Positions 7,728-47,151 of a stretch of 51,150 bases of DNA are shown one piece after another. Under the pieces are notes generated by a model, which made no database searches, was not told the DNA's origin, and was given only the letters and a program-made list of their open reading frames with translations. Each line of letters starts with the position of its first letter. Positions within the stretch are counted from its first letter, which is position 1. Made by a program: the position numbers and the translations under genes. This DNA is from a phage: the sequence record PX930853.1; one strand, 5' to 3'.

Positions 7728-10700
7728 TTACCACGTACCAGTAAGCCTACCAATCTGAACACGCAAGCTCCCGTTTGCGTCCCGTACACTTATCGTTTCG
7801 TTGGTCAACTTCATGGCCCCTTCTCCAGATGTAGAACCATAGTTCTCAAATCTGCCGTTTTTATCCAGCCTCCACCCCTGCTGATTAGCAACAAAGTTAT
7901 TCGACTGAATATAATTACCAATCATGGCATTTGTGATGGAACCGTTTTTCACTAGCAGGCTGTTAATGAAAACCTGGTTGTTTTCAACAACGAAAGGCAA
8001 AGTAAACGTACCTCCAGTAGAGCTAGTCATGATCGCGAACCTGTTAGCATCGAACAAGATTTGCGAGATCAGGCCTTGAGAAGATTGCGACAACTGCATG
8101 ATCATGCCTGCGCTGTACTTCTGCCCCTTGTAAGTAAGGCCCAATTTCATAGCGTACTTAGCGCCAACCGAATCAACGTTAGCCCACGAATCAAGTTTTT
8201 CGGCTAGTGCTGATTCAACGTCTCCGAATTTGGCTGTTAAAGCCTGGTCAGCCTGAACCCTTGCCTCTGTCTCATTAGCGATAGCCTGTCTTACTTCTGA
8301 TATGTTCGCCTCAACATCAACCTTGATTGCATCGTTAAGGTCATTAATCTCTTTCGAAAACTTAGCGTCAAGCTGCTGAACGGCTTGCGCACGCGCTTCT
8401 GATTCATTGGTAATGGTTTGCCTTACCTCGCCAATGCTTGCAGCCGTATCTCGTTTTACGCCGTCTATTTCCTTCGTAAATTTAGAATCAAGTTGCTGCA
8501 CTTGAGTAGCTCGCGTCTCTGATTCGTTGGCAATCGCTTCCTGAACGGTTTTGATACTTGAAACTATATCTTCATCAATTGACGCCTTTAACTCTTCGAT
8601 TTGAGTTACTCGCGCCTCCGTTTCGGTAGCAATAAGCTCCAGTGCATGACCATATTCAGCCTTACGCTTTCCGTTTTGTACTCGCGTCCACTTCACATCA
8701 GCATCGTTTGCCAATGCGTTCTGGATGATTGATTGCGCCTGGTCTTTGATTTTGTTGGCACTGTCTATGGCGTTCTCTTTGATTTCTTGACCAGCTTCGG
8801 TATCAAAAATCTTGTCCAGAATGTCGCCTAAAACAGAGTCAACATCATCTGACGCCATGCCACGAACAAAGTCAGTCCAGCCGGAAACGTTGCCTATTCT
8901 GTCAACGCTGCGGATTCTATACCATACAACTTGCCCCGCTGGTAACGTGCCATGCCAATACTCATATTGAGGATACGGGATCAGCGTAAGCAAACTTGAG
9001 TTTTCCACCGTTCCATCTGGCGATTGGTGAAGCTCGATGTAAGCCGTATCTCCTGACCCTTCCGGCATACCCCATTTGACACGAATGCCAAAAACTTCAT
9101 TATCAGAAGCTGTAAGATTAATCGGCGCTCCTGGCTCGCCAACTTTACCTGTCAGGGTTGCGGTTGCAATCTTTGACCACGGGGAAGTGTTACCGCTTGC
9201 AGAAACAGATCTAACCCTTACTTGGTAGTTACCAGAATAAATTCCTTCTACCTCTATCTCTTTGTTAGCTGTCTGCGGTGTATTCAGCCAGTTGCCATCA
9301 CCTTTTCGCCATTGCATTTCATACAATGACGCATAAGGCACTTTTTCCCATGACACAACCATAGTTTCAACGCTGACACCCTGCACGACGCGAGAATAAG
9401 ATGAGATCTGCACGTTCTCAGGCGCTGCCATCACGTCAGGCTGAACAATTGAAGTTGGCCTGTCATCAATGTTTACTCCATAATCAATCTCGTCGTATTT
9501 GTTCGGATCGTACTCTACAGCCGTGATTGAATAGGTAAACTCGTTTTCGTCATCACCCTTGCTGATAGTTGTCACAACGTATTGCTGCAACGCAAGGTCA
9601 GTACGGTCAATCGCAAAAACGGTATCAGGCTTAACATCAAAACCAAATCCAATATTTAACTCAATGGTTTTTCCGTCTGCGCTAACCTTTGAGATCGTGC
9701 GCTTAACTGGCTTACCGTCCGGCTTGTTGATGATAATAAAATCACCAGGACGAGCATCAACCTTAAACGGAACGAAAACCTGCAATCCTGAAACTTCCAT
9801 CACTCGGCCCGATAGGTTTAACGTTAGGTTGCTGCTCTGAAAATTATCAGCGATAGCAATCACATCACCTATTGATGGAATCATCCCCTCCAGTCCAGTA
9901 GCAAAGTTTACAGTAGTGCTTCTAAGGTTTGTTTTCAAAACCCACCGACCGCGACGATTCGCTTCGCTCCTGCGTGTACACCCGATCGCTGTAATGCTTG
10001 TTGGATTGTATCCAAATCGTAATGCCGCCTCAGTATCAAAAACCCCCTCTACGTCCTGTTGATACATGTTTTGTTCGTCGTCAAACGTCACGTTACACTG
10101 CGTGTACATGCTTTTTTCGCTTGCGGTTGTGTACTGAAAATCACCGTTGATGACGTTTTCATTAGTAAACACGTATGATGGATCGCGCGGCTTATCAATC
10201 ACGATTGATAAGCTCTCACCATTCCAAAAGCTCATTCCGCGAAAGATTGAGCAAATGTCACGGATTAGCTGATAAGCCTCAACTTGATTCTGAATCACAA
10301 CATCGCATAGGTAGCGAGGCTCTGTACCGCCTTTACCGTCTGGAACTTTCTGATCACAGTAAACTCCTGCCTCATATAAGCTCCACTTGTCGATCTGTAT
10401 TCCTAGCTCTCGCTGGTCAAGCCCATAACGCTGATTCGTTACCAGATCATAAAGCACCCAAGCAGGATTATTTGACCACGCTTTTTTAAAAGTACCATCC
10501 CATGACCCGTGATATTCTCTTGATATTGGATCGTAGTTGCTTGGCACGTTAATAATCTTCCATTTCTTTTTTATAGAAATGTTAGGGATTTGCGTAGGAA
10601 ACAATTCGCTGTCAAATTCTACGAATACAAGGCCAGTCAGAGGATAACGGAATTTTGCATCCACAACCTCAGCGTAACTTTGCAGTTTGATTTTATCAGT

Positions 10701-11306
10701 CACCTTTGAAGATGTGCTGTCTGGCGTAACTCGTCGAACGCGGAACAATACGCGATCATTGAACTTCGGCAAGTCGATACGGCGACTGCGGTCGTAACCT
10801 GTTCTCGTTTTACCGTTAATGGTGTCCAGCAAAACTTCTTTGTAAGATTCGCCATCAACCGCCATATCAACGGCATATGTGACACTAACACCTACCAGAT
10901 CTCCGTTATCCTCCTGCTTTATGCCAGTTGGCATCAGAATCTTGATTCTGATTGCGGAAAGATTTTTGTTTGTTACAGAGATAATATATGGATTGTCTGC
11001 TGTAATATCTCGCGAAACTGTCACCTCGCTTGATGTGTCAGTAAACCCCTGGATGTAATCTTGCGTCTGTGTGCCTGGTCTATATTCAGCCATTACCCCC
11101 TCATAGTTAACAGTGCCATCGCTGGCAATAACCGGAACATCATCAAGATAAAGATCACGCAACGTGAAATCTGGATCGCACTCGCCATCAGATACAGCCA
11201 GCAAAACTTTAATCTTGTTTATCGAGATCAGGTTATCTTCCATCTCTTTTGGCACGTATGGCTTTTTGCTTCCGCCCTTACTGCCGCTTATCATATATTT
11301 AGCCAT
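7728..11306 (-). CDS. tail tip / central tail fiber protein (lambda J-like host specificity protein)
   Basis: ~1190-aa ORF downstream of tail assembly I-K-L-M genes; N-terminus SGSKGG...KPYVP...DNLISINKIKVLLAVSDGE resembles J-family N-termini. Confidence 0.8.
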   Translation of the reverse strand: MAKYMISGSKGGSKKPYVPKEMEDNLISINKIKVLLAVSDGECDPDFTLRDLYLDDVPVIASDGTVNYEGVMAEYRPGTQTQDYIQGFTDTSSEVTVSRDITADNPYIISVTNKNLSAIRIKILMPTGIKQEDNGDLVGVSVTYAVDMAVDGESYKEVLLDTINGKTRTGYDRSRRIDLPKFNDRVLFRVRRVTPDSTSSKVTDKIKLQSYAEVVDAKFRYPLTGLVFVEFDSELFPTQIPNISIKKKWKIINVPSNYDPISREYHGSWDGTFKKAWSNNPAWVLYDLVTNQRYGLDQRELGIQIDKWSLYEAGVYCDQKVPDGKGGTEPRYLCDVVIQNQVEAYQLIRDICSIFRGMSFWNGESLSIVIDKPRDPSYVFTNENVINGDFQYTTASEKSMYTQCNVTFDDEQNMYQQDVEGVFDTEAALRFGYNPTSITAIGCTRRSEANRRGRWVLKTNLRSTTVNFATGLEGMIPSIGDVIAIADNFQSSNLTLNLSGRVMEVSGLQVFVPFKVDARPGDFIIINKPDGKPVKRTISKVSADGKTIELNIGFGFDVKPDTVFAIDRTDLALQQYVVTTISKGDDENEFTYSITAVEYDPNKYDEIDYGVNIDDRPTSIVQPDVMAAPENVQISSYSRVVQGVSVETMVVSWEKVPYASLYEMQWRKGDGNWLNTPQTANKEIEVEGIYSGNYQVRVRSVSASGNTSPWSKIATATLTGKVGEPGAPINLTASDNEVFGIRVKWGMPEGSGDTAYIELHQSPDGTVENSSLLTLIPYPQYEYWHGTLPAGQVVWYRIRSVDRIGNVSGWTDFVRGMASDDVDSVLGDILDKIFDTEAGQEIKENAIDSANKIKDQAQSIIQNALANDADVKWTRVQNGKRKAEYGHALELIATETEARVTQIEELKASIDEDIVSSIKTVQEAIANESETRATQVQQLDSKFTKEIDGVKRDTAASIGEVRQTITNESEARAQAVQQLDAKFSKEINDLNDAIKVDVEANISEVRQAIANETEARVQADQALTAKFGDVESALAEKLDSWANVDSVGAKYAMKLGLTYKGQKYSAGMIMQLSQSSQGLISQILFDANRFAIMTSSTGGTFTLPFVVENNQVFINSLLVKNGSITNAMIGNYIQSNNFVANQQGWRLDKNGRFENYGSTSGEGAMKLTNETISVRDANGSLRVQIGRLTGTW

Positions 11307-11353
11307 GACTTTTAACCTTTTGTGCTGTTTCTTGGTTTGCACATTATAAATGC

Positions 11354-11379
11354 ACAAAAAAACCAGCGCAATGCTGGTT
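11354..11379 (-). terminator. rho-independent terminator (minus strand)
   Basis: AACCAGC-GCAAT-GCTGGTT stem; T7 on minus strand. Confidence 0.5.
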
Positions 11380-11383
11380 AAAT

Positions 11384-11860
11384 CTACTTTCCGTGGTTTA
11401 TGTGGAATTTGTTTAAAACTTCAATCTCTATCCTCTTTTCTGCCGCATCCTGAAATGAATCAAAGTAAAATTCATGCCTAACACCATCAATCTTTGCTCT
11501 TGCAATCCATTTTCCGCGACTAAAGTTTACCCCAGTAATTCCCGTCTTGCTGTTCCTGTAAAGCGACTTATTCTTGTTGTTAACACTCATTCTAACAAGT
11601 CTTAAGTTTGAAATATTGTCGTTCATTGTGTTGTGATCTATGTGATCAACTTGCATTCCATGCGGTATTTCTCCATTATGAATTTCCCAAACTATCCTGC
11701 TCCTGTAGTATCTTTCTCCATCAATTGATATTCTAACCCTTTCTCCACTCTTCTTGCTTTTGCTTACGCTTCCTGCCTCACTTCATTTCTTTATCCTTCT
11801 TCCTACGTCTACAGCCCAAAATAACTTACCGTCATTATAATAAAAAATATCACGCCACAT
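11384..11860 (-). pseudogene. HNH homing endonuclease (HNH + AP2-like domain) interrupted by single in-frame TGA at 11783..11785
   Basis: One frame reads MWRDIFYYNDGKLFWAVDVGRRIKK-TGA-SEAGS...RYYRSRIVWEIHNGEIPHGMQVDHIDHNTMNDNISNLRLV...; GGAGGTGATC RBS before ATG 11860; track shows only the distal 90-aa piece. Confidence 0.6.
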
Positions 11861-11921
11861 GATCACCTCCTTAATTAATTGTAAAGCGAAAATCCGTTTT
11901 CGCTTTAACATATTGTGCTAT

Positions 11922-12518
11922 TTATGCTTTGTCCTCTGCGTAGCTGCCAGCCGACCAGATCGCGCCGCCTACTGTCCTATATCCATATGGCAAAGGAACC
12001 GGATAGCCTGCCGCCGTGGTATTTACTGCGCCGCCGAAAGCGTAAGAAGGCTTGTTTTCTGCTGATTGGCTTTGCAGTTTCATTCCGCCCTGCTGCGGAG
12101 AGATCATTTGCATGACACCGCCAAGCGCGATAGCACCACCCATCATAAATGCGGAAGATGCAAAAGCGCCCATAGCCGCCAGGCTTGCACCGCCAGTAAT
12201 GAACGCAGTAGCCATAATTACAGCACCAAAAACAACATTGAACAGGCCGCCGGACTTAGAACCAGTTGGAACAGGAACTATTCTAACCTCTCGCGCGCAC
12301 TTCCATGATTTTTCATCATGCTGACCAATGTTTTTACCGTCAACGAATATAGCATACTTCATGCGCGATCCAACTTCGCTTTGCATGTAGTCTTTGAACC
12401 CTTCAACCTGGGAAGATAACGCGCGTATTGCTTCGGGGTATGAGTCAACCGCCATTTTGTGAAAGACGCCAAATCTACGCCCCAGGGAACCAGATAGCTT
12501 AATTACTTTCAATGTCAT
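11922..12518 (-). CDS. tail assembly protein I
   Basis: 198-aa ORF after K; Gly/Ala-rich hydrophobic segment; lambda I-like position and size. Confidence 0.7.
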   Translation of the reverse strand: MTLKVIKLSGSLGRRFGVFHKMAVDSYPEAIRALSSQVEGFKDYMQSEVGSRMKYAIFVDGKNIGQHDEKSWKCAREVRIVPVPTGSKSGGLFNVVFGAVIMATAFITGGASLAAMGAFASSAFMMGGAIALGGVMQMISPQQGGMKLQSQSAENKPSYAFGGAVNTTAAGYPVPLPYGYRTVGGAIWSAGSYAEDKA

Positions 12519-38186: not shown

Positions 38187-38414
38187 ATGAAAGCAAAAGT
38201 TTTAAACATTATGGCAACTATTGACGCTCATCACCGCGTGGCTGTAAAACTTGATAAGTCATGCGGAATTAGCCAAATCACTATCACAGAGGGCAAAGGC
38301 GGCTATCTTATTGGTATCCATCCAGGCGGTAAGGTGCGCAAATACAATAAAGATCAGGTAAAAGAATTACTGGAAGAAAACGCTTTCTATATTCAAAGTT
38401 GGCGCGCTCTTTAA
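38187..38414 (+). CDS. hypothetical early protein (75 aa)
   Basis: GAGGA RBS. Confidence 0.5.
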   Translation: MKAKVLNIMATIDAHHRVAVKLDKSCGISQITITEGKGGYLIGIHPGGKVRKYNKDQVKELLEENAFYIQSWRAL

Positions 38415-38421
38415 TTAATCT

Positions 38422-38447
38422 GGCGGCGTTTTGCCGCCTTTTAAATG
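38422..38447 (+). terminator. putative rho-independent terminator
   Basis: GGCGGCG-TTTT-GCCGCC stem followed by TTTTAAA. Confidence 0.5.
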
Positions 38448-38456
38448 AGGTGAAAA

Positions 38457-38573
38457 ATGATAGATAAAGCTATTGATTTCTTTTTTTATTCGATTATTGG
38501 CGCGGTTGGATTTTTGGTTACTGCTGCTGGCCTGGCTATTATCTTGGCTGTTATTAAGGGAGTTATGCGATGA
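38457..38573 (+). CDS. small membrane peptide (38 aa), not in ORF track
   Basis: GAGGTGAAAA RBS; MIDKAIDFFFYSIIGAVGFLVTAAGLAIILAVIKGVMR; ATGA overlap with next gene. Confidence 0.3.
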   Translation: MIDKAIDFFFYSIIGAVGFLVTAAGLAIILAVIKGVMR

Positions 38574-38794
38574 GTCAGGACGGTTTTTTTGAGCGCCTTC
38601 AAATGGCAGAAGATGCCGGACTAAATAAAGAGGCGGCGCTTGAAGTGGCATATAAAATTAAGACTCTTGATGAGGCTTTAGGTGATATGGATATGGATCT
38701 TGAATCAAGCGCAATATTTGCAGATCCAAATATGATTGTTAATGATTGTGGATGCGATTTCGATCCTAGTTGTCCGCGCTGTTTTCCGTTTTGA
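38570..38794 (+). CDS. hypothetical acidic protein with C-terminal Cys cluster
   Basis: ORF track; CGCDFDPSCPRC motif. Confidence 0.45.
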   Translation: MSQDGFFERLQMAEDAGLNKEAALEVAYKIKTLDEALGDMDMDLESSAIFADPNMIVNDCGCDFDPSCPRCFPF

Positions 38795-38802
38795 GGTAAT
38801 GA

Positions 38803-39330
38803 ATGAATTGGCACGATTACTTTACATACAATCCAGAAACTGGAAAGCTGTTCTGGAAAGAAAGAAAAGATATTCACCCATCAAGAGTTAAACAATGGAA
38901 TGCTTGCAATGCTGGTAATGAGGTTGGCTCTTTTGGTAGTGGTGGCAGATATTTAGAAACTGCACTTACTGTAAACGGAAAACGTTATAACCTGAAAGTT
39001 CATAGAATATGCTATGAAATGCACTATGGGCCTATACCGGAAGGAAAGGAGGTTGATCACGTAAATCACATCACGACTGATAACAGAGCAATAAACTTTG
39101 AGTTAAAAGATCACAAAGGAAATATGCGAAACACATCAAAGCAGAAAAACAATACAAGTGGCATACCAGGTGTGCATAAAAATAAACATGGCAAATGGGT
39201 TGTAAGGGTTGGAGGCGGAAAGCGAGGAAGTAGGATTTATATAGGTTGTTTTTCCAGTTTTGGAGATGCTGTTGCCGCAAAACGTAAAGCCGAGAATGAA
39301 TTGGGGTATCATAAAAATCATGGGAAATAA
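38803..39330 (+). CDS. HNH homing endonuclease with AP2-like DNA-binding domain
   Basis: YNPETGKLFW...VDHVNHITTDNRAINFEL HNH signature; C-terminal GIPGVHKNKHGKWVVRV AP2-like segment. Confidence 0.65.
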   Translation: MNWHDYFTYNPETGKLFWKERKDIHPSRVKQWNACNAGNEVGSFGSGGRYLETALTVNGKRYNLKVHRICYEMHYGPIPEGKEVDHVNHITTDNRAINFELKDHKGNMRNTSKQKNNTSGIPGVHKNKHGKWVVRVGGGKRGSRIYIGCFSSFGDAVAAKRKAENELGYHKNHGK

Positions 39331-40006
39331 AGTTGCTTACTCAATGTTTGATGGATCTGGAATCATGCTGCTTGAATATGCGAAGGCTGGCTATCAATGC
39401 TATTGCTTTAACGCTGATGAAGGCAATCACGGCGAATATTTCATCAAGATGAAACATGAAAATCTGCATTATGTGAATATGTGGATTGATGAAAATTTCA
39501 TTGAAAGAATCAGTAAGATTGGTATTCCAAAACCAGATATTGTATTTGGATTTCCAGACTGCACCATGTTTGCCCAATCAGGAATCAAGCACGTGCGAAG
39601 CGATGATGATATTCAGGTTGCGCTCAAAAATGCAATCATGGTTGAAACTGTCGGGAATCATTTCGGTGTCCCCTGGATGGCTGAGAATCCTGTAGGCCGA
39701 CTATCAACGCTATGGCGAAAGCCTGATTTTTATTTCAATCCTCGCGATTTTGGTAACTACCTGGACGAATCCGATGGATCTTTTCACCCCAAGATGCCGC
39801 TAAAGGATGGCTACACAAAAAGGACTGCTATCTGGTGCGGCAACGGATTTACAGAACCCGAACGCAAGCCGTTATCCAATGATGATGGCGTAATGTTCTT
39901 TTGGGGTTGGAAGTTTTTAGGCGGTAAGTCTGCCAGAACAAAGCAACTACGCTCCCTCACTCCGCGCGGCTTTGCTCGCGCCGTCTTTGAGTCAAACTCA
40001 AAATAG
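39320..40006 (+). CDS. putative SAM-dependent DNA methyltransferase (C5-cytosine-like motifs, atypical)
   Basis: FDGSG (motif I-like), FGFPDC (PC-like motif IV with inserted Asp), AENPVG (ENV-like); start overlaps 3' end of HNH gene. Confidence 0.4.
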   Translation: MGNKVAYSMFDGSGIMLLEYAKAGYQCYCFNADEGNHGEYFIKMKHENLHYVNMWIDENFIERISKIGIPKPDIVFGFPDCTMFAQSGIKHVRSDDDIQVALKNAIMVETVGNHFGVPWMAENPVGRLSTLWRKPDFYFNPRDFGNYLDESDGSFHPKMPLKDGYTKRTAIWCGNGFTEPERKPLSNDDGVMFFWGWKFLGGKSARTKQLRSLTPRGFARAVFESNSK

Positions 40007-40022
40007 CACTTTTTGTTAAAAG
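40002..40022 (+). promoter_or_regulatory. conserved intergenic box
   Basis: AATAGCACTTTTTGTTAAAAG then CCAGGT-GTAAAAA-ACCTGG dyad then CATAAT; ~50 bp before ATG 40076. Confidence 0.4.
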
Positions 40023-40075
40023 CCAGGTGTAAAAACCTGGCATAATCACATCGAACAAACAAAGGAGATCTGATC

Positions 40076-40748: not shown

Positions 40749-42329
40749 ATGTTTTCATTAGAAACGAACAAATTAACTCCACAGCAAATAATCGCTATGG
40801 CTGAAAGCCAGAACCTTTCACCAGTTCGCGTATCAATTCAGGCTAACGGCTATCGCCAGTCGTCCAGCTTTTGGGGCGACGTGAAGGATGTAAATAGCGG
40901 TCACGATCGCTACCCCGTAATTTCTCTTGGTAATGATATTGATGTTGTCGGAAAGTTATCACGCAGTATTGCGCGATCCGTTCAATTCCCTGAATCATCG
41001 GCTTACATGCACTTTATCGGCTGCATTTCTGCCGCCATGCTTGGACGCTTTACGGTTGACTATCACGGGACCGATCAGCCGACTGCGATTTACGTCGTTA
41101 CAAGCCAGCCGCCGTCAACTGGTAAATCTGCGATCAACAGTATGGCTATTGCTCCGATGATTGCGGAAGTTGAGAAGATCAACGAGCAACGCCGCAAGGA
41201 AAGAAAGAAAATACAGGCAAAGTTGGCAGGTCTTGCAAAGGAGATGAAAAGCGAAAGATCAGGCGCTGATATGGAATCTCTATACCAGGAAAAAGAGGAT
41301 CTGGAAGAGAAGCTGGAAAAGATGTGTGATATAACTTTCCCTGTTTCAGATACAACTCCAGAAGGCTTGGCAAAAATCAACAACAAGCAAGGTAACTTTG
41401 CCGTAATATCTGACGAAGCAACAAGTATTAACAGTCTGTTAGGCTTGACCTATGCCAATAGCGAAAGGAAGACTAACAGTGAGCTAGTGCTTAAGGCGTG
41501 GGATAATGGTCACGTATCAATTGCCCGTGCTAATGCTGACAATAACATGAGTTTTCGCGCACTTGGATGTATGAGCGTTATAGCCCAGGATGAAACGATA
41601 AGCGGAATCATGGACGCTGGATCGCGCGGTATCGGTGTGAGTGAGCGCTTTTTGTTGGTCCGTGAGGAATCATTCTTAGGCCGTCGCTCATTCATTGATG
41701 AAAATGGTGATTCTACCTATGAGGCGGTGGATCCTGAATTGAAGGCCCAATATTATCAATTGGTGCATAACATCATGAGCGAATCAAATATATCGCTGAA
41801 AATAAGCCGTTCAGCTATGCGAGTGCTCAACATTGCTCGCCAGGATATGGAACCGCATCTTGCAGACGGCGGAAAGTATTCTCATACAATGTTACGCGGT
41901 GCGCTGGGTAAAATGGATAAACAGGTGATCAGGCTTGCTTCCGTCCTGCATGTTATCCGCAACTGGTTTAATCCTGCTGGATACCCGCAGAAGTCGAAAG
42001 AGATCGACGTGGAAACAATGCAAGAGGCGCTGATCATGTTTCAGGAATTGAGCAAAACATACATTAGCGCCGCCAATGCTTCTGGTTATGCTGGTGATGA
42101 TGCTGAAATGGGCAAATTGATTGAATTGATCACTAGACACGGCAAGGCTAATAAAGGGATTCTGAATATTCGCGCCCTGTACGAATCAGCGAGAAAGGTA
42201 AAACCTTTCGTTGGTCAGGCTGGCGTAATGAAGAGGATAGAAGGGCACTTGCTGCCAATGCTGGAAGAAAGAAATTATGTTTGTGTGATTAATGGTGTTA
42301 TTTTTGTCAATCCAATACTGCTGGGATGA
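40749..42329 (+). CDS. large early protein with P-loop NTPase-like motifs, function unknown
   Basis: 526 aa; Walker A-like PPSTGKSA, Walker B-like FAVISDEAT, central charged coiled coil; AAAGGAG RBS. Confidence 0.55.
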   Translation: MFSLETNKLTPQQIIAMAESQNLSPVRVSIQANGYRQSSSFWGDVKDVNSGHDRYPVISLGNDIDVVGKLSRSIARSVQFPESSAYMHFIGCISAAMLGRFTVDYHGTDQPTAIYVVTSQPPSTGKSAINSMAIAPMIAEVEKINEQRRKERKKIQAKLAGLAKEMKSERSGADMESLYQEKEDLEEKLEKMCDITFPVSDTTPEGLAKINNKQGNFAVISDEATSINSLLGLTYANSERKTNSELVLKAWDNGHVSIARANADNNMSFRALGCMSVIAQDETISGIMDAGSRGIGVSERFLLVREESFLGRRSFIDENGDSTYEAVDPELKAQYYQLVHNIMSESNISLKISRSAMRVLNIARQDMEPHLADGGKYSHTMLRGALGKMDKQVIRLASVLHVIRNWFNPAGYPQKSKEIDVETMQEALIMFQELSKTYISAANASGYAGDDAEMGKLIELITRHGKANKGILNIRALYESARKVKPFVGQAGVMKRIEGHLLPMLEERNYVCVINGVIFVNPILLG

Positions 42330-46361: not shown

Positions 46362-47093
46362 TTAGCTCCGTTTGCGTGCGCGACGTTCTGTTACAGAAGG
46401 GCAAATATCGCTGATCTTAACGTATCGCGTTTTCTGCTCCTCGCCTTCTTTAAGTTTGCGCATGACAAAAATCACGCTTCCCTTGTTGTTGCCCTGCACA
46501 GGCTCACCAGTCAATCCAGACACAAAGGCAATTCTTCCGGTGCGGGAGTATTCTACTCCACCCTCTTCGTAAACCTCACCAGTGATCCAGATGATTTCAG
46601 CCGCGTTTTTCTGCGCCTCATAAAACCATGCTGTAGAGTTGTCGGCTGGCAACAAAACATCAATTTGGTTGTTGTGCTCCATTTGCTCAATTGCTTTCTT
46701 GATAAATGGAGTTGGGTTGCTGTACGGCGGGTTAAGCCATACGTGCTTGTTGCTACCCCACCAACGCTTTAAGCAGTTTGTTTCCTTGCTATAGAACTTC
46801 TCGCAAACTGCGTTTTCCTGGCTTGCTGCCGCGTCGAGATCGTATTCACCAAATTCTGATTCCATCCACTCCACGATCTCTTGAGGCGTGCTCCACATAT
46901 CTCGCACAACGTCCGGCGTAGTGCTTCCAGCGTATCGGTTTCCGCTTACCTTATAATATTGATTTGGCTTTACTGCCTGGTAATGGCCTCCAGTTGCAAG
47001 GGCATTCCCTATAAACGTTTCTCTCTCCAACTGCTCAAAGCTAACGAATGCGTCATGGGTGTCTTTATCTAAAATATCTTTAGCCATTTTCAT
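46362..47093 (-). CDS. dam: DNA N6-adenine methyltransferase (phage Dam-like)
   Basis: NPPY motif (HVWLNPPYS) and SAM-binding-like region; start chosen at downstream ATG with RBS (track start 47114 also possible). Confidence 0.75.
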   Translation of the reverse strand: MKMAKDILDKDTHDAFVSFEQLERETFIGNALATGGHYQAVKPNQYYKVSGNRYAGSTTPDVVRDMWSTPQEIVEWMESEFGEYDLDAAASQENAVCEKFYSKETNCLKRWWGSNKHVWLNPPYSNPTPFIKKAIEQMEHNNQIDVLLPADNSTAWFYEAQKNAAEIIWITGEVYEEGGVEYSRTGRIAFVSGLTGEPVQGNNKGSVIFVMRKLKEGEEQKTRYVKISDICPSVTERRARKRS

Positions 47094-47151
47094 TTCTCCG
47101 CTATTAAAAGCCATCTCGTGTTATTGAATTATGGCGCAATCCATCGCGCCA

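What the first reader, a model, noticed from the sequence alone, without database searches (positions are those of the whole stretch)
38803..40006. HNH endonuclease gene overlapping a methyltransferase-like gene
The HNH-AP2 endonuclease (38803-39330) is followed, with an 11-nt overlap, by a 229-aa protein whose motifs resemble a C5-cytosine DNA methyltransferase (FDGSG, FGFPDC, AENPVG) but with an Asp inserted in the catalytic Pro-Cys dipeptide and no obvious target-recognition domain. The pair could be an ordinary homing endonuclease beside an anti-restriction methylase, or a compact nuclease plus methylase unit resembling a restriction-modification or exclusion system. With Dam at 46362-47093 the phage would carry two DNA methyltransferases.
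Basis: inference. Interest (0 to 1): 0.5.

Follow-up and report, generated by a model that had tools for sequence, protein, structure and literature searches.

The report
Homing endonuclease beside compact phage Dcm
This is an ordinary, already annotated pair in T1-like coliphages: a mobile HNH homing endonuclease gene has landed just upstream of a very small (228 aa) cytosine-C5 DNA methyltransferase. The two are neighbours by insertion and do not form a restriction-modification unit.

Summary
Both genes are real. The HNH ORF is 38803-39330 (Pfam HNH_3, E=2.9e-14). A 228-aa ORF at 39320-40006 overlaps it by 11 nt (PHROG 757 'DNA methyltransferase', E=1.8e-77). The window is a Drexlerviridae (Warwickvirus-like) coliphage, and near-identical GenBank phages already annotate the pair as HNH endonuclease plus Dcm-like methyltransferase.

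The HNH gene is an independent mobile insertion. Phage BEK7 has the same methylase directly after the upstream 74-aa gene. HNH DNA occurs in 13 phage records against 79 for the methylase, and sits at a different locus in Shigella phage S2_02.

A 44%-identical homologue at the same locus (phage K42/KarlJaspers Dcm) was reported to add 5mC to retron Ec86 msDNA and trigger that defence. Target sequence is unproven. Dam is confirmed, on the minus strand.

The parts
38570..38794 (+). Conserved 74-aa gene of unknown function. Its stop and the following GAGG Shine-Dalgarno mark the left edge of the HNH insertion.
   Evidence: ORF. It is present directly upstream of the methylase in the HNH-less phages BEK7 and KarlJaspers. 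Pfam gives no hit.
38803..39330 (+). Free-standing HNH homing endonuclease gene (175 aa). It is a mobile insertion of about 0.5 kb that took over the methylase's Shine-Dalgarno and supplies the methylase's new start codon.
   Evidence: Pfam HNH_3 E=2.9e-14 for residues 65-109; phrog_99 E=1.9e-50; PADLOC 'homing endonuclease' E=3.2e-5. Absent from BEK7 and KarlJaspers at this locus. Present in only 13 phage records. At a different locus in Shigella phage S2_02.
39320..40006 (+). Compact Dcm-like C5-cytosine DNA methyltransferase (228 aa) with no separate target-recognition domain.
39347..39361 (+). Motif I (F10-D-G-S-G14), the AdoMet-binding loop after strand beta-1.
   Evidence: Sequence. Aligned to M.HaeIII SLFSGAGG. 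The family consensus is S-L-F-D-x-T/S-G.
39551..39562 (+). Motif IV (F78-P79-D80-C81). C81 is the predicted catalytic nucleophile. D80 replaces the canonical Pro.
   Evidence: Cys is present in 101 of 102 family representatives. The position before it is P 73, V 11, E 10, with D and others making up the rest. Among 120 closer homologues the counts are FPDCT 89, FPSCT 17, FPPCT 10. C81 is equivalent to C82 of K42/KarlJaspers Dcm.
39683..39691 (+). Motif VI (E122-N-P), the ENV-equivalent. The Glu is predicted to protonate cytosine N3.
   Evidence: E is present in 101/102, N in 96/102 and P in 100/102 representatives. E122 is equivalent to E128 of K42 Dcm, which was mutated in the inactive variant.
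39818..39835 (+). Motif VIII-equivalent strand (K167-R-T-A-I-W172).
   Evidence: K167, T169 and W172 are nearly invariant. K167/R168 are equivalent to K175/K176 of K42 Dcm. The model places this stretch in strand E169-174.
39950..39988 (+). Conserved C-terminal R-S-x-T-P-x-G-F-A-x-A-V-F element (motif IX/X-like helix). Only about 40 residues separate it from motif VIII, so there is no room for a TRD domain.
46362..47114 (-). Dam-type N6-adenine DNA methyltransferase, the phage's second methylase. It is not part of the pair.
   Evidence: ORF. Pfam PF05869 Dam E=1.1e-61.

Best explanation
Two functionally independent genes lie side by side.

(1) 38803-39330 encodes a free-standing HNH homing endonuclease. 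Its cassette inserted between a conserved 74-aa gene and the methylase gene of a Drexlerviridae phage. It captured the methylase's ribosome-binding site and replaced the first four codons (MKQK became MGNK). By inference, the methylase is now translated by coupling to HNH: its ATG lies 10 nt before the HNH stop. The cassette spreads by cleaving HNH-less alleles during co-infection and being copied in together with flanking sequence.

(2) 39320-40006 encodes an active, compact, AdoMet-dependent C5-cytosine DNA methyltransferase of the widespread phage 'Dcm-like' family. It consists of the catalytic Rossmann domain only. Cys81 attacks C6 of a flipped-out cytosine, Glu122 of the ENP motif protonates N3, and short loops do the job of a target-recognition domain. 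This is closest to the DNMT3 catalytic domain.

The methylase's likely role is post-replicative 5mC marking of phage DNA to blunt host restriction, possibly at CCWGG. The cost is that such methylation can trip retron Ec86/Eco1.

Shown here: gene reality, HNH mobility, fold, motif conservation, purifying selection and homology to K42 Dcm. Inferred: catalytic activity of this allele, its target sequence, its anti-restriction role and translational coupling.
For: HNH identity.

HNH mobility: BEK7 and KarlJaspers carry the methylase directly after the 74-aa gene. HNH DNA is in 13 phage records against 79 for methylase DNA. The same HNH (93.5% nt identity) lies beside unrelated genes in the Tunavirus S2_02.

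Co-conversion: phage Kalemo is 99-100% identical to the window from the 74-aa gene through HNH to about 39700, then switches to the KarlJaspers-type allele. This gives an intact chimeric methylase.

Methylase: phrog_757 E=1.8e-77. A 59%-identical member passes the Pfam PF00145 threshold (27.3 bits against a cut-off of 22). Weak M.HaeIII alignment of motifs I and IV. AF2 pLDDT 88.4. C5 MTases head both fold searches.

Family size: 1,495 phage records and 773 clusters at 50% identity, nearly all 200-260 aa. Cys, ENP and K167 are near-invariant. dN/dS is 0.10-0.14.

Experiment on a homologue: K42 Dcm (residue numbering matches KarlJaspers Dcm, which is 44% identical and syntenic) raised 5mC in msDNA by LC-MS and triggered retron Ec86. 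A C82A/E128A/K175A/K176A mutant did neither.

Site usage: GATC and CCWGG are not avoided in the window (observed/expected 1.01 and 0.97), while many other palindromes, including CCSGG, are depleted.
Against: The window protein itself gives no Pfam or NCBIfam hit. A family profile finds no C5 MTase among PDB sequences. Assignment therefore rests on PHROG, fold and one family member.

The canonical Pro before the catalytic Cys is Asp here, and this allele has not been tested. The characterised homologue has FPPC and is only 44% identical.

CCWGG specificity was assumed from E. coli Dcm in the K42 study, not mapped. Those experiments were done in MG1655, which to my knowledge is dcm+, yet control msDNA had low 5mC. 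The phage enzyme may therefore differ in substrate or site.

The BASEL study found no simple link between these methylases and restriction resistance.

No good Shine-Dalgarno precedes ATG 39320.
Confidence: 0.85

Rival explanations
1. The HNH nuclease and the methylase form a functional restriction-modification-like or exclusion module. The methylase would protect the phage's own DNA from the HNH nuclease, which would attack unmethylated competitor or host DNA.
For: The genes are adjacent, overlap by 11 nt and are probably translationally coupled. A small gene annotated as an HNH endonuclease also abuts the Dcm gene in Dhillonvirus phages.
Against: Most phages with this methylase lack the HNH gene. 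The same HNH sits beside unrelated genes in S2_02. In vB_GS71 the HNH gene is intact while the methylase has lost residues 15-111, including the catalytic Cys. The HNH matches homing-endonuclease families. The Dhillonvirus protein is unrelated (E=0.39) and has no Pfam HNH hit.
Confidence: 0.04
2. The 228-aa protein is a catalytically dead or repurposed methyltransferase-like protein, for example a DNA binder or decoy. The reasons would be that the Pro of the Pro-Cys motif is lost and there is no TRD.
For: FPDC replaces FPPC. There is no Pfam or NCBIfam hit. The allele has not been tested. The gene is dispensable or decayed in some relatives (vB_GS71 deletion, split gene in 2019SD1).
Against: Cys81, ENP, motif I and K167 are conserved. 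The position before Cys varies naturally (P, V, E, D, S, Q) across an otherwise conserved family, and FPDC is the majority form among close homologues. Purifying selection is strong. In canonical enzymes the Pro contributes mainly through its backbone (from memory). A natural chimera joins this N-terminal half to the C-terminal half of the characterised allele type.
Confidence: 0.07
3. The enzyme is active but makes something other than site-specific 5mC in duplex DNA. Possibilities are relaxed or very short specificity, a preference for single-stranded or hairpin DNA, RNA m5C, or transfer of a group other than methyl.
For: There is no TRD. In the K42 study the control msDNA from MG1655 (dcm+ to my knowledge) had low 5mC although it carries CCTGG, while the phage enzyme raised it. 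A C5-carboxymethyltransferase (8yf3) is among the structural neighbours.
Against: LC-MS on the homologue detected 5mC. Mutating CCTGG in the msDNA abolished defence. The best structural matches are duplex-DNA C5 methyltransferases.
Confidence: 0.08

Closest known systems
Phage K42 / KarlJaspers (Bas06) 'Dcm', the trigger of retron Ec86 (Eco1). Source: Wang et al., bioRxiv 10.1101/2023.08.16.553469.
   Same: Same protein family, same genomic slot (74-aa gene, dcm, 128-aa gene, 73-aa gene, DUF3987 'helicase') and similar size (236 against 228 aa). Cys, ENP and the K-K/R residues are conserved.
   Different: Only 44% identical. It has FPPC where the window has FPDC. The C-terminal loops differ: FVIPPRATILPKEDDKDNPGWAKTGG against FTEPERKPLSNDDGVMFFWGWKFLGG. 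There is no HNH gene upstream in KarlJaspers. The window allele is untested.
DNMT3A/DNMT3B catalytic domain
   Different: Only 13-16% identity. DNMT3 is about 280 aa, works as an oligomer with regulatory domains, and targets CpG. The phage enzyme is smaller and stands alone.
Canonical bacterial type II C5 methyltransferases (M.HaeIII, M.HhaI, E. coli Dcm/M.EcoRII; Pfam PF00145)
   Same: Same chemistry is predicted. Motifs I, IV (Cys) and VI (EN-) are recognisable. The possible target CCWGG is the same as for Dcm (inference).
   Different: Canonical enzymes are about 320-480 aa with a distinct small TRD domain (from memory). The window protein does not reach any Pfam PF00145 score. Its motifs read PDC-T instead of PC-Q, ENP instead of ENV, and K-R-T instead of Q-R-R.
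Free-standing HNH (HNH_3) homing endonucleases of phages (PHROG 99)
   Same: It has the HNH_3 catalytic core, a sporadic distribution and an intergenic insertion between conserved genes. There is evidence of co-conversion of flanking sequence.
   Different: The cleavage site is unknown. The proposed AP2-type DNA-binding tail is not statistically detectable.

Membership tests
C5-cytosine DNA methyltransferase (PF00145-type) | Motif I F-x-G-x-G AdoMet-binding loop | tested here: met
   F10-D-G-S-G14, aligned to M.HaeIII FSGAG.
C5-cytosine DNA methyltransferase (PF00145-type) | Motif IV Pro-Cys with the catalytic Cys | tested here: inconclusive
   The Cys is present and near-invariant (101/102). 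The preceding Pro is Asp here. The family consensus is PPC, with V, E, D, S and Q variants.
C5-cytosine DNA methyltransferase (PF00145-type) | Motif VI E-N-V | tested here: met
   E122-N123-P124. E and N are near-invariant, and the third position is Pro across the family.
C5-cytosine DNA methyltransferase (PF00145-type) | Separate target-recognition domain between motifs VIII and IX | tested here: not met
   About 40 residues lie between strand 169-174 and the C-terminal helices. 192 of 228 residues align to the DNMT3B catalytic domain.
C5-cytosine DNA methyltransferase (PF00145-type) | Score above the Pfam PF00145 gathering threshold | tested here: not met
   No PF00145 hit at E<=1 for the window protein. 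The 59%-identical member P0066 scores 27.3 bits against a cut-off of 22, over motifs I-IV only.
C5-cytosine DNA methyltransferase (PF00145-type) | C5-MTase catalytic-domain fold | tested here: met
C5-cytosine DNA methyltransferase (PF00145-type) | AdoMet-dependent formation of 5-methylcytosine in DNA | not testable with these tools
   Reported only for the 44%-identical K42 Dcm (LC-MS).
Compact phage Dcm-like methyltransferases (PHROG 757) | Full-length match to the family profile, with a length of about 210-250 aa | tested here: met
   E=1.8e-77 over residues 3-227. Homologues are 200-260 aa.
Type II restriction-modification pair | Nuclease and methylase are inherited together, and the nuclease is not found without its cognate methylase | tested here: not met
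   The methylase occurs without HNH in BEK7, KarlJaspers and many others. HNH occurs next to a deleted methylase in vB_GS71. HNH occurs at another locus in S2_02.
Free-standing HNH homing endonuclease | HNH catalytic motif | tested here: met
   Pfam HNH_3 E=2.9e-14.
Free-standing HNH homing endonuclease | Sporadic presence/absence at a precise site between conserved genes, with flanking co-conversion | tested here: met
   Junction alignment. Records: 13 against 79. Kalemo mosaic.
Free-standing HNH homing endonuclease | Site-specific cleavage of the endonuclease-free allele | not testable with these tools
   Needs an in vitro or co-infection assay.
HNH-AP2 architecture | AP2 DNA-binding domain at the C-terminus | tested here: inconclusive
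   No Pfam AP2 hit, even on the isolated tail. There is only a match to AtERF1 1gcc at E=2.1 over residues 123-163.

The most novel reading that the evidence does not exclude
The FPDC clade of this TRD-less family, to which the window enzyme belongs, might differ in target or substrate from the single characterised FPPC homologue. For example, it might have a very short or relaxed site, or a preference for hairpin or replicating DNA. Asp, Glu, Val or Ser before the catalytic Cys might tune the chemistry. The family would then be a natural minimal C5 methyltransferase whose specificity is encoded in a few loops and can be exchanged by recombination, as the natural Kalemo chimera suggests.
Probability: 0.12. 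Interest if true: 0.5.

Novelty: already known. Interest (0 to 1): 0.2.

Why it matters
It matters little as a discovery. The pair is already annotated in near-identical GenBank phages, and the methylase family has a published functional study.

Three points of residual value remain:
- This very common family (about 3% of GenBank phage records) is a minimal C5 methyltransferase with no TRD, and its recognition sequence has never been mapped directly.
- The family tolerates replacement of the canonical Pro next to the catalytic Cys.
- Carrying the gene determines sensitivity to retron Ec86/Eco1, which is relevant when choosing therapeutic T1-like phages.

Tried and rejected
- Pfam and NCBIfam scans of the 228-aa protein gave nothing useful.
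- A 65-sequence family profile against PDB sequences found no methyltransferase, so fold comparison was needed.
- The AP2 domain in the HNH tail could not be confirmed.
- PADLOC gave only weak generic MTase hits (E=0.0017 and 0.0092) plus a homing-endonuclease hit for HNH. No defence-system assignment followed.
- I considered a recurrent Dcm-HNH association because Dhillonvirus phages list an 'HNH endonuclease' right after Dcm. I rejected it: that 105-aa protein is unrelated to the window HNH (E=0.39) and has no Pfam HNH hit.
- Literature searches for direct data on PeterMerian/Bas05, or for the target site of 'Dcm-like' phage enzymes, found nothing beyond the K42 preprint and a general remark in the BASEL paper.
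- The published version of the K42 study was not in the searchable library.
- Site-usage statistics are compatible with CCWGG protection but cannot separate the phage enzyme from host Dcm or host-like oligonucleotide usage. I did not use them as proof.

Full report
**Observation.** The two ORFs exist as described. HNH runs 38803..39330 (175 aa). A second ORF has an ATG at 39320, 10 nt before the HNH stop, and runs to 40006. It is 228 aa, not 229, and the overlap is 11 nt. HNH matches Pfam HNH_3 (E=2.9e-14) and PHROG 99 (E=1.9e-50). The second protein matches PHROG 757 'DNA methyltransferase' over its full length (E=1.8e-77), but has no Pfam or NCBIfam hit. The AP2 label for the HNH tail could not be confirmed. 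Dam is real (PF05869, E=1.1e-61) but lies on the minus strand at 46362..47114.

**Source and prior annotation.** The region is 96-98% identical to Escherichia phages AV105, Poky, JLBYU07/10/19 and PeterMerian (Bas05). All are Drexlerviridae, Tempevirinae, Warwickvirus. In these records the two genes are already annotated as 'putative HNH endonuclease' and 'putative DNA cytosine methyltransferase' or 'Dcm-like C5 cytosine methyltransferase'. Those annotators chose three different upstream starts.

**The HNH gene is an independent mobile insertion.**
- In phage BEK7 the methylase gene (also 687 nt, 96% identical protein) follows the conserved 74-aa gene directly. It has its own GAGG Shine-Dalgarno and the N-terminus MKQKIAYSMF.
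- In the window, the same GAGG now serves the HNH ORF. The HNH 3' end provides a new start, giving MGNKVAYSMF. No good Shine-Dalgarno precedes 39320. Translation is therefore probably coupled to HNH termination; this is an inference.
- HNH DNA occurs in 13 phage records, against 79 for methylase DNA.
- In the Tunavirus Shigella phage S2_02, the same HNH (93.5% nt identity) lies beside unrelated genes.
- In Salmonella phage vB_GS71, HNH is intact while the adjacent methylase has an in-frame deletion of residues 15-111 that removes the catalytic Cys.
- Phage Kalemo is 99-100% identical to the window from the 74-aa gene through HNH to about position 39700. It then switches to the KarlJaspers-type methylase allele. 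That is the pattern expected from homing with co-conversion of flanking sequence.
- Taken together, these results contradict a restriction-modification-like unit.

**The methylase.**
- The family is very large: 607 clusters at 90% identity, 773 clusters at 50% identity, and 1,495 GenBank phage records. Hosts include Escherichia, Klebsiella, Salmonella and Vibrio, and several phage families are represented. Almost all members are 200-260 aa.
- Conserved features are S-L-F-D-x-T/S-G; F-P-P-C-T-D-L-A-x-S-G with a near-invariant Cys; E-N-P; Y-T-K-K/R-T-x-L-W; and R-S-x-T-P-x-G-F-A-x-A-V-F.
- The residue before the Cys is Pro in 73 of 102 representatives but Val, Glu, Asp, Ser or Gln in others. FPDC is the majority form among the 120 closest homologues.
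- M.HaeIII aligns weakly over motifs I-IV (E=0.026). One 59%-identical member passes the PF00145 threshold.
- The AlphaFold2 model is confident (pLDDT 88.4, pTM 0.88), with low confidence only in the catalytic loop at residues 84-90.
- Only about 40 residues separate the motif VIII strand from the C-terminal helices, so there is no separate TRD. BFVD contains other viral C5-MTase cores of 210-250 aa.
- Pairwise dN/dS among four alleles is 0.10-0.14.

**Experimental anchor.** Wang et al. (bioRxiv 10.1101/2023.08.16.553469) isolated escape mutants of phage K42, a KarlJaspers-like phage, on retron Ec86. All four escape mutants hit a 711-bp dcm gene. Expressing Dcm was toxic only when Ec86 was present, and it raised 5mC in msDNA as measured by LC-MS. 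A C82A/E128A/K175A/K176A mutant did neither. Mutating CCTGG in the msDNA stem abolished defence. The KarlJaspers Dcm (MZ501090, 40087-40797) has exactly those residues at those positions. It occupies the same slot as the window gene and is 44% identical to it. CCWGG specificity was assumed from E. coli Dcm rather than mapped. The low 5mC in control msDNA from MG1655, which to my knowledge is dcm+, leaves the true site or substrate open. The BASEL paper notes that Drexlerviridae commonly encode both adenine and cytosine methylases, and found no simple link to restriction resistance.

**Supplementary genome statistics.** The window avoids many palindromic restriction sites, for example TCCGGA, GGCGCC, AAGCTT, ATGCAT and CCSGG. 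CCSGG occurs at only 3 sites. GATC and CCWGG are not avoided. This is compatible with protection of those two sites by Dam- and Dcm-type methylation, but it does not prove it.

**Verdict.** The locus is an ordinary homing endonuclease next to a known type of compact phage C5 methyltransferase, and both are already annotated. The open points are the unmapped recognition sequence, the TRD-less architecture, and the variable residue beside the catalytic Cys.

Noticed in passing
window 11384-11863 (-): A second HNH homing-endonuclease homologue (33.5% identical to the first, same ...HxNHGK* ending) lies between the large tail protein gene (7728-11357) and the next tail gene (11922-12518). An in-frame stop after about 26 codons interrupts it. 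It is likely a decaying pseudogene, or it may be expressed only as a 90-aa remnant (11384-11656).
   Followed up: partly
window 40022-40041 (+): A stable hairpin, GCCAGGT-GTAAAA-ACCTGGC, lies 16 nt after the methylase stop. It has no T-tract, and its stem carries two CCWGG sites. The 76-nt region folds with a z-score of -4.0. The last 57 nt of the methylase gene plus this spacer stay 93-100% identical between otherwise very divergent methylase alleles.
   Followed up: partly
whole window: There is strong palindrome avoidance. CCSGG has 3 sites against about 44 expected from dinucleotide shuffles (about 18 by Markov model). TCCGGA, GGCGCC, AAGCTT, AGGCCT, ATGCAT, GCCGGC, GATATC and GAATTC are nearly absent. 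GATC (288) and CCWGG (118) are at or above expectation.
   Followed up: partly
L008:1190-1882 (Escherichia phage Kalemo): A natural chimeric methylase. Residues 1 to about 134 are identical to the window's FPDC allele, and the C-terminal approximately 100 residues are of the KarlJaspers/K42 type. The crossover lies in the conserved ENPVGxLSTLWRKPD stretch.
   Followed up: yes
L009:1190-1603 (Salmonella phage vB_GS71); L007:1443-2206 (Shigella phage 2019SD1): The methylase gene is decayed in some relatives. vB_GS71 and vB_GS166 have an in-frame deletion of residues 15-111. In 2019SD1 the gene is split into two annotated CDSs. The gene is therefore dispensable in some hosts.
   Followed up: partly
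GenBank MG0656xx 'Campylobacter phage' records: About 20-40 records labelled as Campylobacter jejuni phages carry this Drexlerviridae region at 85-93% nucleotide identity to coliphages. The host labels look doubtful (mislabelled or contaminant assemblies).
   Followed up: no
window 40749-42329 (+): The 526-aa protein annotated 'putative helicase' in relatives matches only Pfam DUF3987 (E=1.6e-43). The helicase label rests on that domain alone.
   Followed up: no
BFVD A0A6J5SE15: A compact Dcm-like core (26% identical, TM 0.67) occurs fused within a 1,397-aa 'Helicase/UvrB N-terminal' protein of an uncultured phage.
   Followed up: no
window 38422-38438 (+): A terminator-like GC-rich hairpin with a T-tract lies just after the 75-aa gene (38187-38414). 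It is upstream of the genes leading into the HNH-methylase pair.
   Followed up: no
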